Assembly (NCBI RefSeq): GCF_058153355.1 | Contig: NZ_JBLWLY010000002.1 | Strand: one strand, 5' to 3' | From: a plasmid | Length of the DNA: 64,000 nt | Shown: one piece after another, positions 34,784-35,500 of the stretch | How positions within the stretch are numbered: the first letter of the stretch is position 1 | How the letters are laid out: each line of letters starts with the position of its first letter | Position numbers and translations under genes: made by a program | Notes under the pieces: generated by a model | Told to the model about the DNA's origin: nothing | Databases searched by the model: none | Seen by the model: the letters and a program-made list of their open reading frames with translations, nothing else

Positions 34784-35500
34784 ATGAATGACAATTCATT
34801 GCTTAGAAATTCTTCATTATTCATCGCCTATATGGGATGTGTAGGGTGGGTCAGTGCTTATTCTTATGGCTGGGGAACCTCTTTTTACTATGGATTTCCA
34901 TGGTGGGTTGTTGGTGCAGGTTTGGATGATGTTGCCAGAAGTTTACTCTATGCTATCATAGTAATGGGTATACTCTTTACCGGTTGGGGGATTGGTATTT
35001 TATTTTTTCTTCTTATAAAGAAAAGAAGTAAAATACAAGACTTGAGTTTTTTTAGACTATTTTTTGCTATTACCCTACTGTTTTTCCCTGTAATATTCGA
35101 ACTTTTAATTCTCAAACAATATTTCATACTTCCATTATCACTTTCATGCATTATTAGTTCATTGGTTATTTCAATAATAATTCGTATATATGGACGGATC
35201 TTTTCTGTATCATGTTTTTCAGATATCCCTTTTGTTAGAGAACACCGCATTAAGTTAATTATGGCTGGTTTTTTGGTTTATTTTTGGCTTTTTTCCTTTC
35301 TTGTTGGCTGGTATAAACCTCAATTAAAAAAAGAATATCAGATGCTTTGTTATAATAATAGTTGGTATTATGTTCTTGCTCGTTATGATTCACGGCTCGT
35401 TTTGTCTAGTTCATTTAAAGATGACAGTAACAGATTCTTAATATTTAATACAGAACAGTCGGGATTTTATGAAATCAATGATGTTTATGTCAGAAAGTAA
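34784..35500 (+). CDS. Hypothetical polytopic membrane protein (238 aa) in an AT-rich island
   Basis: Several long hydrophobic segments; strongly AT-rich codon usage unlike the neighbouring IS DNA; no recognisable motif. Confidence 0.45.
   Translation: MNDNSLLRNSSLFIAYMGCVGWVSAYSYGWGTSFYYGFPWWVVGAGLDDVARSLLYAIIVMGILFTGWGIGILFFLLIKKRSKIQDLSFFRLFFAITLLFFPVIFELLILKQYFILPLSLSCIISSLVISIIIRIYGRIFSVSCFSDIPFVREHRIKLIMAGFLVYFWLFSFLVGWYKPQLKKEYQMLCYNNSWYYVLARYDSRLVLSSSFKDDSNRFLIFNTEQSGFYEINDVYVRK

What the first reader, a model, noticed from the sequence alone, without database searches (positions are those of the whole stretch)
34784..35500. Orphan AT-rich polytopic membrane protein with no recognisable family
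A 238-aa ORF with multiple hydrophobic helices sits alone in a very AT-rich stretch (about 34.2-35.6 kb) between IS remnants, with codon usage unlike the flanking IS DNA. It is horizontally acquired cargo of unknown function. Candidates include a phage-exclusion/Abi-type membrane protein, an immunity protein, or a fragment of a polysaccharide-processing gene.
Basis: inference. Interest (0 to 1): 0.45.

Follow-up and report, generated by a model that had tools for sequence, protein, structure and literature searches.

The report
Known-family membrane gene on Shigella plasmid
The "orphan" gene is real and intact, but it belongs to an already catalogued family of small inner-membrane proteins of unknown function (the STM1630 / Pfam "TfpB" family) that lambda-like prophages and virulence islands carry as single-gene cargo.

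Summary
Window 34784-35500 (+) is an intact 238-codon ORF (32% GC, window 46.6%) in an AT-rich spacer between IS remnants. The window is a Shigella/EIEC pINV virulence plasmid; the ORF is CP0168 of pCP301, lying between the spa40 end of the T3SS region and virA.

The ORF is neither an orphan nor a fragment. It aligns end to end with 233-250 aa homologues that carry Pfam PF27470 ("TfpB"). It matches phrog_1521 (E 6e-84), and one RefSeq record calls a homologue "STM1630 family protein".

Relatives occur in 1197 of 5426 complete E. coli genomes, in Salmonella (STM1630, beside sseJ), Citrobacter, Yersinia, Pasteurellaceae and Neisseria. In lambdoid prophages the gene occupies the slot between antiterminator Q and the holin, where stx sits in Stx phages. 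No partner gene is conserved.

The model (pLDDT 76.5) has five TM helices, N-in, and a small periplasmic beta domain. It has no solved structural relative and no catalytic-type invariant residues.

Function is unknown for the whole family. My best guess is a stand-alone, non-enzymatic envelope modulator carried as a phage "moron" (about 35-40%). Superinfection exclusion and a silent passenger on pINV are the main rivals. Interest is low to moderate.

The parts
34784..35500 (+). Intact CDS, 238 aa plus stop. This is the pINV member (CP0168 in pCP301; WP_005142026-type) of the STM1630 / PF27470 'TfpB' / phrog_1521 family.
   Evidence: ORF call. Annotated as a hypothetical protein in pINV records. 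Family labels. End-to-end alignments.
34790..34921 (+). Helix 1 (residues 3-36) plus the first periplasmic loop (residues 37-46). It holds the family signature SS..AY.G..GW.SAY.YGWG.S.YYGFPWW and is the best conserved part of the protein.
   Evidence: AF2 secondary structure. Per-region conservation is 0.77-0.81. Invariant A15, W22, Y26, Y28, G29, W30, G37 and W41. The AY.Y...G core survives in the widest alignment.
34922..35326 (+). TM helices 2-5 (residues 47-78, 89-111, 116-136, 155-181), with two positively charged cytoplasmic loops (residues 79-91 and 134-157).
   Evidence: AF2 model. Each loop has a family-wide net charge of +2.9, which gives an N-in / C-out topology.
35333..35488 (+). 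C-terminal five-stranded beta domain (residues 184-235), predicted to be periplasmic and weakly SH3-like. It contains the WYYVLARY motif.
   Evidence: AF2 strands at 184-190, 193-201, 204-208, 219-222 and 231-235. Only weak matches to small SH3-like barrels such as the KorB C-domain and the HIV integrase CTD, with E above 1.
34200..34783 (+). AT-rich upstream spacer with candidate sigma-70 promoters at 34647-34707. It has no similarity to the upstream DNA of other family members.
   Evidence: Composition. Promoter-like sites (consensus matches only). blastn similarity to 190 other loci is confined to 34782-35456. No MxiE box is present.
35501..35626 (+). AT-rich 3' tail of the islet. It ends at the junction where this plasmid lacks 197 bp that other pINVs have.
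   Evidence: Sequence and blastn against pSS_046.

Best explanation
Identity (shown): this is an intact, full-length member of the STM1630 / Pfam PF27470 ('TfpB') / phrog_1521 family, carried on the Shigella/EIEC virulence plasmid.

Anatomy (predicted): it is an inner-membrane protein with the N-terminus in the cytoplasm and five TM helices. It has a highly conserved aromatic and glycine-rich end of helix 1 plus first periplasmic loop, and a roughly 55-residue periplasmic beta domain.

How it travels (shown): it moves as a single-gene cassette with no conserved partner. Most often it sits in the late-operon 'moron' slot of lambdoid prophages, after Q/tR' and before the holin. Elsewhere it lies beside virulence cargo: eltAB, the iro genes, lpxR, sseJ, and on pINV near the T3SS region.

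Mechanism (inferred, about 35-40%): it works alone and by binding rather than catalysis. From the periplasmic face of the inner membrane it would engage an envelope component or membrane machine. That would tune envelope behaviour or growth of the carrier in an animal host, which is a lysogenic-conversion type of fitness factor. The Salmonella homologue STM1630 is the only member with data. It is H-NS-bound, induced with SPI-2 and inside macrophages, its mutants were attenuated in calf and chick screens, and its deletion increased replication in macrophages.
For: Family and full length.

Homologue identification: STM1630 is P0084. The locus has sseJ divergent from a 717-bp gene, and the published STM1630 deletion primer and promoter oligo map onto L097.

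Structure and topology: the model has pLDDT 76.5 and pTM 0.67, with five helices and a beta domain. The positive-inside analysis gives N-in / C-out.

No enzyme signature: the only invariant polar residues in the 32-sequence alignment are R52 and R91, and only G175 is invariant in the widest alignment.

No conserved neighbour: Pasteurellaceae and Neisseria copies sit singly among housekeeping genes, at a different site in each genus.

Context census of 187 non-pINV loci: 111 are lambdoid prophage (35 of them with lpxR), 6 are iro, 5-7 are eltAB and 4 are sseJ. In phage 434 the cassette is bracketed by tR' and a strong terminator.

Prevalence: 1197 of 5426 complete E. coli genomes carry a relative.

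pINV copies: they are full length and at least 99.3% identical in 114 plasmids from all four Shigella species and EIEC. Eight sampled copies are all intact. Their 6 nonsynonymous to 6 synonymous changes compare with an expected 79% nonsynonymous (one-sided P = 0.025).

STM1630 literature: PMC6785131 Text S1, PMC2639726 and bioRxiv 10.1101/450098.
Against: No experiment bears on the pINV gene itself. I found no paper that names CP0168.

The STM1630 phenotypes are weak or inconsistent. Hypermotility seen in one screen was not listed among the phenotypes confirmed with clean deletions. Its apparent 'essentiality' in transposon screens was attributed by the authors to H-NS binding. The calf and chick attenuation comes from a transposon screen.

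Association with virulence cargo may only reflect where mobile AT-rich genes accumulate.

Topology is predicted, not measured. The selection signal on the pINV copies rests on 12 sites and ignores shared ancestry.
Confidence: 0.4

Rival explanations
1. Superinfection-exclusion or phage-defence protein. A prophage-encoded inner-membrane protein blocks DNA entry or development of incoming phages, in the manner of P22 SieA, T4 Imm or HK97 gp15. The plasmid and chromosomal copies would be domesticated versions.
For: Most sampled copies are in lambdoid prophages, between Q and the holin. The gene is solitary, membrane-embedded and non-enzymatic. About 22% of complete E. coli genomes carry it, with a median of two places per genome that has any.
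Against: There is no hit to any PADLOC model. Stable single chromosomal copies exist in Pasteurellaceae, Neisseria, Salmonella and Citrobacter with no prophage around them. STM1630 is co-regulated with SPI-2 and shows host-related phenotypes, which exclusion genes are not expected to show. The helix 1 and loop region is strongly conserved across three bacterial families, which is unlike the rapid diversification usual for exclusion proteins. That last point rests on established knowledge, not on a test here.
Confidence: 0.2
2. Silent passenger on pINV. The family is functional elsewhere, but the pINV copy is an H-NS-silenced leftover in an IS graveyard with no current role. It is intact only because little time has passed.
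For: It lies among IS fragments. No MxiE box is nearby. The upstream DNA shares nothing with other members. All pINV copies differ by five or fewer substitutions from the window copy, so there has been little time for decay. The AT-rich Salmonella homologue is H-NS bound.
Against: The gene is intact in all eight copies translated, taken from all four Shigella species and EIEC, and full length at 99.3% identity or more in 114 plasmids, on a plasmid notorious for pseudogenes. The nonsynonymous to synonymous ratio is below neutral expectation (P = 0.025). The one apparently frameshifted copy shows only homopolymer indels, which are typical of sequencing error.
Confidence: 0.2
3. Orphan immunity protein that protects against a membrane-targeting toxin, such as a pore-forming colicin or a CDI or T6SS effector.
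For: It is a small polytopic inner-membrane protein, solitary and on mobile elements. Helices 3-4 are the most variable part, with conservation of 0.27-0.52.
Against: None of about 190 loci has a toxin gene beside it. The neighbours are prophage late genes, IS elements or housekeeping genes. There are no Pfam or NCBIfam immunity-family hits. The periplasmic motif is conserved from Escherichia to Neisseria, whereas immunity proteins normally co-diversify with their toxins (established knowledge).
Confidence: 0.07
4. Type IV pilus accessory protein, as the Pfam name TfpB suggests. From my memory, Moraxella TfpB is an ORF in the pilin-gene inversion region. The protein would work like the FimB / TfpY pilin accessory proteins.
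For: The Pfam short name is 'TfpB'. One E. coli fragment of the family is named 'protein tfpB' by its depositor. The length is similar to TfpY/TfpZ (235-245 aa), and the general layout is shared: N-in, an odd number of TM helices and a periplasmic C-terminal domain (PMC11841053).
Against: There are zero type IV prepilin motifs in 1.63 Mb of DNA flanking 187 members. The architecture differs: five TM helices and a roughly 55-aa beta domain here, against three TM helices and a large two-sheet periplasmic domain in TfpY-like proteins. None of 32 members hits any pilin-accessory model in NCBIfam. Neisseria and Pasteurellaceae copies are not next to pilin genes.
Confidence: 0.05
5. Fragment of a larger polysaccharide-processing or other membrane protein.
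For: None was found.
Against: Homologues align from residue 1 to residues 237/238 and are themselves 233-250 aa in Enterobacterales, Pasteurellaceae and Neisseriaceae. No larger protein appears among the 83 family clusters, apart from a few with short terminal extensions.
Confidence: 0.01

Closest known systems
Salmonella Typhimurium STM1630 (SL1344_1560), the 'STM1630 family protein'
   Same: It is the same family and the same length (238 aa, 717 bp), 49% identical and colinear end to end. It is also AT-rich relative to its surroundings and solitary, and it sits next to a T3SS effector gene (sseJ), much as the pINV copy sits near the T3SS region and virA.
   Different: It is chromosomal rather than plasmid-borne. 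Its regulation is known: H-NS bound, and expressed in SPI-2-inducing medium and in macrophages. Phenotypes are known only for STM1630. The two copies share no upstream DNA. The function is still unknown.
Putative membrane protein CPT_434_68 of phage 434, and its copies in E. coli O157:H7 and other lambdoid prophages (phrog_1521)
   Same: It is the same family, 57% identical over the whole length. The ORF matches phrog_1521 at E 6.4e-84.
   Different: The phage copies lie directly after Q/tR', are followed by a DUF3927 (TciB-like) ORF and a small TM ORF, and sit before the holin. The pINV copy has lost, or never had, all of these neighbours.
Moraxella TfpB, the presumed namesake of Pfam PF27470
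   Same: The family label PF27470 'TfpB' is attached to every homologue. One E. coli fragment that covers TM5 and the beta domain is named 'protein tfpB'.
   Different: I could not retrieve the Moraxella sequence, so this relationship rests on the label and on my memory that TfpB is an uncharacterised ORF in the pilin inversion region. No member examined here lies next to pilin genes.
TfpY / TfpZ / FimB type IV pilin accessory proteins
   Same: The size is similar, they are inner-membrane proteins with a periplasmic C-terminal domain, and they are non-enzymatic (PMC11841053).
   Different: They have three TM helices and a large two-sheet periplasmic domain, and are always encoded next to the major pilin gene. 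Here there are five TM helices and a small beta domain, no pilin neighbour, and no sequence match.
Phage 'moron' lysogenic-conversion genes in the Q-to-holin slot (stx) or elsewhere in lambdoid phages (bor, lom, lpxR)
   Same: The genomic position and cassette structure are the same, with terminators on both sides, and the gene co-occurs with lpxR and bor/iss.
   Different: Those are toxins or outer-membrane proteins with known activities. This is an inner-membrane protein with no known activity.

Membership tests
Pfam PF27470 'TfpB' / NCBI 'STM1630 family protein' | Significant match to the family model | tested here: met
   The test is indirect. The model is absent from the local Pfam copy, where a scan gives only noise. 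The precomputed Pfam column shows PF27470 for the 99%-identical Shigella representative P0001 and for every homologue. It appears unmarked (E of 1e-5 or better) in gene tables.
Pfam PF27470 'TfpB' / NCBI 'STM1630 family protein' | Full-length colinearity with other members, which are about 233-250 aa | tested here: met
   Query coverage is 100% for more than 40 clusters. Alignments A1-A4 run end to end. The profile hits cover positions 1-237.
Pfam PF27470 'TfpB' / NCBI 'STM1630 family protein' | Signature motifs: AY.YGWG..YYGFPWW, ARSL, YFW.FS..G.YKP and WYYVLARY | tested here: met
   All four are present in the window ORF, at invariant or nearly invariant columns.
PHROG phrog_1521 (phage proteins of unknown function) | HMM match over the whole profile | tested here: met
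   E 6.4e-84, with residues 17-232 matching profile positions 1-216 of 222.
TfpY/TfpZ/FimB type IV pilin accessory proteins | Three N-terminal TM helices followed by a large periplasmic domain: a mixed three-stranded sheet, a helix and an antiparallel three-stranded sheet | tested here: not met
   The model has five long helices up to residue 181 and a single small five-stranded domain. The TfpY architecture is described in PMC11841053.
TfpY/TfpZ/FimB type IV pilin accessory proteins | Encoded next to the major pilin gene | tested here: not met
   No prepilin motif occurs in 1.63 Mb around 187 members. The neighbours are prophage, IS or housekeeping genes.
TfpY/TfpZ/FimB type IV pilin accessory proteins | Sequence similarity to family models | tested here: inconclusive
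   No NCBIfam hit of that kind was found for 32 members at E up to 10. I could not verify that such a model is in the library, and I could not obtain a TfpY sequence for a direct comparison.
Abi / CPBP (CAAX-protease-like) membrane proteins | Conserved EExxxR, FxxxH and HxxxB motifs on TM helices | tested here: not met
   No invariant Glu or His is present. The invariant polar residues are R52 and R91 only. No Pfam match to that family was found.
Known anti-phage defence systems (PADLOC-DB) | Match to a component model | tested here: not met
   The only hit is a 4.6-bit, E 3.7 match to a generic 4TM effector.
Pore-forming colicin, CDI or T6SS immunity proteins | Genetic linkage to a cognate toxin gene | tested here: not met
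   No toxin gene is adjacent in any context examined. The LT toxin genes eltAB lie nearby on ETEC plasmids but are divergent and separated by about 870 bp, and LT is a secreted AB5 enterotoxin rather than a membrane-targeting bacteriocin.
Polysaccharide-processing membrane enzymes (Wzy, WaaL, acyltransferase-3, Gtr) | Domain match, or being a piece of a longer such protein | tested here: not met
   No Pfam or NCBIfam match was found. The protein is full length for its own family.

The most novel reading that the evidence does not exclude
The STM1630/TfpB family is an unrecognised class of single-gene, phage-disseminated inner-membrane modulators. Through a conserved periplasmic aromatic loop and a small beta domain, it would reprogramme an envelope machine or sensor and restrain or tune growth inside animal hosts. 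On this reading the pINV copy, intact in every Shigella lineage, is a so far overlooked virulence-plasmid factor. Alternatively, it could be a new kind of superinfection-exclusion protein.
Probability: 0.2. Interest if true: 0.6.

Novelty: already known. Interest (0 to 1): 0.3.

Why it matters
In itself this is an ordinary result. A 'hypothetical protein' annotated on pINV since the first plasmid sequences turns out to belong to a family that Pfam, PHROGs and NCBI have already catalogued.

It still has some value as a pointer. The family is narrow: 83 clusters at 50% identity among 1.84 billion representatives. Among members whose source could be named it is largely from animal-associated Enterobacterales, Pasteurellaceae and Neisseriaceae, plus a few remote hits such as Peribacillus. 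It is very common in pathogens, occurring in 22% of complete E. coli genomes including O157:H7 prophages, in many Salmonella (a cluster of 2,681 sequences; absent from S. Typhi) and in nearly all sequenced Shigella pINVs. It repeatedly sits beside virulence cargo in the same phage slot as Shiga toxin. Nobody knows what it does.

The only phenotypes come from Salmonella STM1630, and they hint at a role in host colonisation and intracellular growth. A simple deletion and over-expression study in Shigella or E. coli would be cheap and could assign a function to thousands of annotated 'hypothetical' genes.

Tried and rejected
- Plain domain scans gave only noise: Pfam ABHD16_N and DUF2070, nothing in NCBIfam, and nothing usable in PADLOC.
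- Scanning all 32 alignment members gave nothing significant. DUF2070 appeared in 14 members at E of 0.38 or worse. PhoQ / PhoQ_Sensor hits of 12-16 bits appeared in three Actinobacillus-group members, covering TM5 and the start of the beta domain. A bPH_10 hit appeared at E 0.045. I rejected all of these as hydrophobic or topological noise.
- A PDB sequence search with the family profile found nothing.
- The first AF2 model, from 20 close sequences, was too poor to use (pLDDT 58). Adding Pasteurellaceae sequences raised it to 76.5.
- I looked for phage neighbours of the pINV copy (Q, TciB, holin, LpxR, NanS-like esterase and others) by tblastn and found none.
- I looked for a MxiE box near the gene and found none.
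- Literature searches for TfpB, TciA/TciB, CP0168/CP0167 and alternative Salmonella locus tags returned nothing on this family. Only the STM1630 papers were relevant. The 1990 Moraxella tfpB paper is not held.
- The species-representative genome scan and the metagenome scan added only H. ducreyi and one Pasteurellaceae-like contig beyond enterobacteria.
- The downstream ORF (CP0167-like) was tested as a possible partner. It occurs only with pINV copies, so it is not a family partner.
- The apparent frameshifts in plasmid psflex069-A are homopolymer indels, so I did not count that copy as a pseudogene.
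Full report

Yes. The ORF listing returns an ATG-started ORF of 238 aa at 34784..35500 on the + strand. A stop-free stretch of 257 codons in DNA this AT-rich is far beyond chance. In 2000 shuffles of 34200-35650 the mean longest stretch was 77 codons and the maximum 172.

The ORF has 31.9% GC and 25.9% GC3, against 46.6% for the window. The sliding profile shows a trough of 29-40% GC from about 34.05 to 35.7 kb, with about 50% on either side.

The flanks are IS debris:
- an ISL3 fragment at 33126-33768
- an IS110 fragment at 33862-34059
- an IS3 OrfA fragment at 36313-36585
- an intact group II intron reverse transcriptase/maturase at 36768-38000
- an IS66 transposase at 38462-39943

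One qualification applies. A second non-IS ORF (35855-36259) follows 355 bp downstream in DNA of ordinary composition.

**2. Where does the window come from?**

The region is 99.5-99.7% identical to Shigella/EIEC pINV virulence plasmids. Of 140 matching plasmid records, 118 are Shigella. In pCP301 the ORF is CP0168, 'hypothetical protein', between spa40 (the end of the mxi-spa entry region) and virA. In pSS_046 it is WP_005142026.1. The pWR100/pWR501 annotations are equally uninformative.

The CDS is full length and at least 99.3% identical in 114 plasmids of S. flexneri, S. sonnei, S. dysenteriae, S. boydii and EIEC.

I translated eight copies from all these groups. All are intact and differ at 12 sites, 6 nonsynonymous and 6 synonymous. 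Random single-base changes in this ORF would be 79% nonsynonymous, which gives a one-sided binomial P of 0.025. That is weak evidence of constraint, because it rests on few sites and does not correct for shared ancestry. One plasmid with an apparently frameshifted copy shows only homopolymer-length differences, which are typical of sequencing error.

**3. It is not an orphan and not a fragment.**

A search of 5.8 billion proteins gave 81 clusters. Most are 236-238 aa, cover 100% of the query at 46-63% identity, and carry the precomputed Pfam family PF27470. Gene tables give that family's short name as 'TfpB'.

The local Pfam and NCBIfam copies do not contain the model, which explains the empty scans. 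PHROGs does contain the family: phrog_1521 matches at E 6.4e-84 over the whole profile, with function listed as unknown. One RefSeq E. coli annotation of a homologue reads 'STM1630 family protein'. One depositor named an E. coli fragment 'protein tfpB'.

**4. Distribution.**

A profile search of 1.84 billion representatives (50% identity clusters) found only 83 clusters at E of 0.001 or better. Named members are listed below.

| Group | Members |
|---|---|
| Enterobacterales | Escherichia, Shigella, Salmonella, Citrobacter, Klebsiella, Enterobacter, Cronobacter, Yersinia |
| Pasteurellaceae | H. ducreyi, Actinobacillus, Pasteurella, Gallibacterium, Avibacterium |
| Neisseriaceae | N. dumasiana, N. 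arctica |
| Remote (E 1e-7 to 1e-4) | Klebsiella electrica, Mangrovibacter, Peribacillus |

The family is therefore narrow, and most named members come from animal-associated bacteria.

In complete E. coli genomes, 1197 of 5426 carry a relative, with a median of two places per genome that has any. The pINV copy is a deep, separate branch. Nothing outside pINV is more than 63% identical to it. DNA similarity to other copies (about 70%) stops at the CDS boundaries, so the donor cannot be named.

**5. Genomic contexts.**

In phage 434 the gene lies directly after the Q82-like antiterminator and the tR'-like terminator. It is followed by a DUF3927 (TciB-like) ORF, a small TM ORF and a strong terminator, then a NanS-like esterase and the holin. 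This is the late-operon 'moron' slot where stx sits in Stx phages (established knowledge).

The same layout recurs in E. coli O157:H7, in a Yersinia prophage and in most of 80 IMG/VR loci.

Other contexts are:
- divergent from eltAB on ETEC plasmids
- beside iroBCD and a bor remnant in E. coli
- beside lpxR in C. rodentium
- divergent from sseJ in Salmonella

In Pasteurellaceae and Neisseria the gene is a single insert among housekeeping genes, at a different site in each genus.

A census of 187 non-pINV loci gave 111 lambdoid prophage (35 with lpxR), 6 iro, 5-7 eltAB and 4 sseJ. No type IV prepilin motif occurred in 1.63 Mb of flanking DNA. No partner gene is conserved, so the protein must be able to act alone. 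The sample is biased toward prophages, because 80 of the loci came from a viral collection.

**6. The protein.**

With a 32-sequence alignment that includes Pasteurellaceae, AlphaFold2 gives pLDDT 76.5 and pTM 0.67. The model has helices at 3-36, 47-78, 89-111, 116-136 and 155-181, two short helices at 143-153, and a five-stranded beta domain at 184-235.

Across the family, loops 79-91 and 134-157 each carry a net charge of +2.9. This places them in the cytoplasm and puts the N-terminus inside and the C-terminal domain in the periplasm. This topology is a prediction.

Conservation peaks in helix 1 and the first periplasmic loop, with the motif SS..AY.G..GW.SAY.YGWG.S.YYGFPWW. The invariant residues are aromatic or glycine, plus R52 and R91. 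In the widest alignment only G175 is invariant and the AY.Y core is nearly so. Nothing resembles a catalytic set.

Structure searches found no relative:
- Foldseek against PDB: best E 0.85
- BFVD: best E 0.057

The C-terminal domain only faintly resembles SH3-like barrels.

**7. What is known about any member?**

Only Salmonella STM1630 has data. I confirmed that P0084 is STM1630. The gene has the same 717-bp length, sits divergent from sseJ, and the published deletion primer and promoter oligo map onto locus L097.

According to PMC6785131 (Text S1), STM1630:
- is of unknown function and lies between steB and sseJ
- is absent from S. Typhi
- gave mutants attenuated in calf and chick screens
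- is H-NS bound
- is expressed in SPI-2-inducing medium and in macrophages in strain 4/74
- is promoter-dead in all ST313 strains tested
- increased replication in macrophages when deleted in 4/74

It is listed among genes co-regulated with SPI-2 (PMC2639726) and is down-regulated in D23580 inside macrophages. A hypermotility phenotype from one screen was not among those confirmed with clean deletions. No paper mentions CP0168.

**8. How it most likely works.**

Shown: identity, integrity, solitary mobility, the moron position in prophages, and the absence of enzyme motifs and of known defence or immunity signatures.

Inferred: it is an inner-membrane protein whose conserved surface faces the periplasm and the membrane interface. 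It acts by binding rather than catalysis, on an envelope component or membrane machine. It thereby alters the behaviour of the carrier in animal hosts, as a lysogenic-conversion type of fitness factor. I put this at about 35-40%.

Rivals:
- Superinfection exclusion, about 20%. This fits the prophage bias, but not the stable chromosomal copies, the SPI-2-type regulation or the deep conservation.
- A silent passenger on pINV, about 20%. This is compatible with the family having a function elsewhere.
- An orphan immunity protein, about 7%.
- A pilus accessory role, about 5%.
- A gene fragment, refuted.

**9. Comparison with the known.**

Membership of PF27470 / the STM1630 family / phrog_1521 is met on every feature I could test.

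The Pfam name suggests Moraxella TfpB. From memory, that is an uncharacterised ORF in the pilin inversion region. I could not retrieve the sequence or the 1990 paper.

The characterised pilin accessory proteins TfpY/TfpZ/FimB have three TM helices, a large periplasmic domain and an obligatory pilin neighbour (PMC11841053). None of these features is met here, so I do not file the ORF with them.

**10. Verdict.**

The feature is real. The 'orphan' label is wrong. The gene is an already catalogued member of a conserved family of unknown function. Interest is low to moderate. The result itself is ordinary, but the family is common in pathogens, sits in the Shiga-toxin slot of prophages and beside virulence loci, and is cheap to test.

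Noticed in passing
window 35626|35627 (compare L001 7528-7723): This plasmid lacks a 197-bp segment that S. sonnei pSS_046 and most other pINVs carry about 125 bp downstream of the ORF's stop. The flanks are otherwise 99.4-99.5% identical.
   Followed up: partly
window 35855-36259 (+): A 134-aa ORF with an N-terminal signal peptide and 8 cysteines (WP_011114759.1, CP0167). It is conserved next to the membrane gene in every pINV examined. It has no Pfam, PHROG or PADLOC hit and is absent from all non-pINV loci of the family. It may be a small secreted protein of unknown function.
   Followed up: partly
window 28473-28489 (+): A MxiE-box-like sequence (GTATCGTTTTCTTAAAG) with one mismatch to the consensus, on the virA side of the region. 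No such box lies near the ORF under study.
   Followed up: no
window 34264-34237 (-): A strong terminator-like hairpin (10 pairs, 8 of them GC, followed by a T-run) on the minus strand, in the AT-rich spacer just beyond the IS110 remnant. I did not identify what it terminates.
   Followed up: no
window 36768-38000 (-): An apparently intact group II intron reverse transcriptase/maturase (RVT_1 plus GIIM, 410 aa) among the IS debris.
   Followed up: no
L007 (phage 434) 4835-6165; L112 (E. coli O157:H7) 4958-5945: In lambdoid prophages the family gene usually forms a three-ORF membrane cassette with a DUF3927/TciB-like ORF and another small TM ORF. The cassette is bracketed by tR' and a strong intrinsic terminator, and lpxR often lies divergently upstream of Q.
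   Followed up: partly
L014 (C. rodentium) 5863-7717 and L097 (Salmonella) 5349-7717: The same chromosomal site, upstream of the frmA-like ADH, a Tar-like MCP and a LysR gene, holds lpxR plus the family gene in Citrobacter and sseJ plus STM1630 in Salmonella. The Citrobacter lpxR is called as two ORFs and may be a pseudogene.
   Followed up: no
L101 and L103 (genome-contig hits): Short contigs in MAGs labelled Veillonella and Lachnospiraceae carry enterobacterial-type copies (57% identical to the query). They look like binning contamination rather than real hosts.
   Followed up: no
L198 5001-5760: One distant family member is split into ORFs of 196 and 62 aa, probably by a frameshift. Many truncated members also appear in Avibacterium and Salmonella clusters, so decay of the gene is not rare outside pINV.
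   Followed up: no
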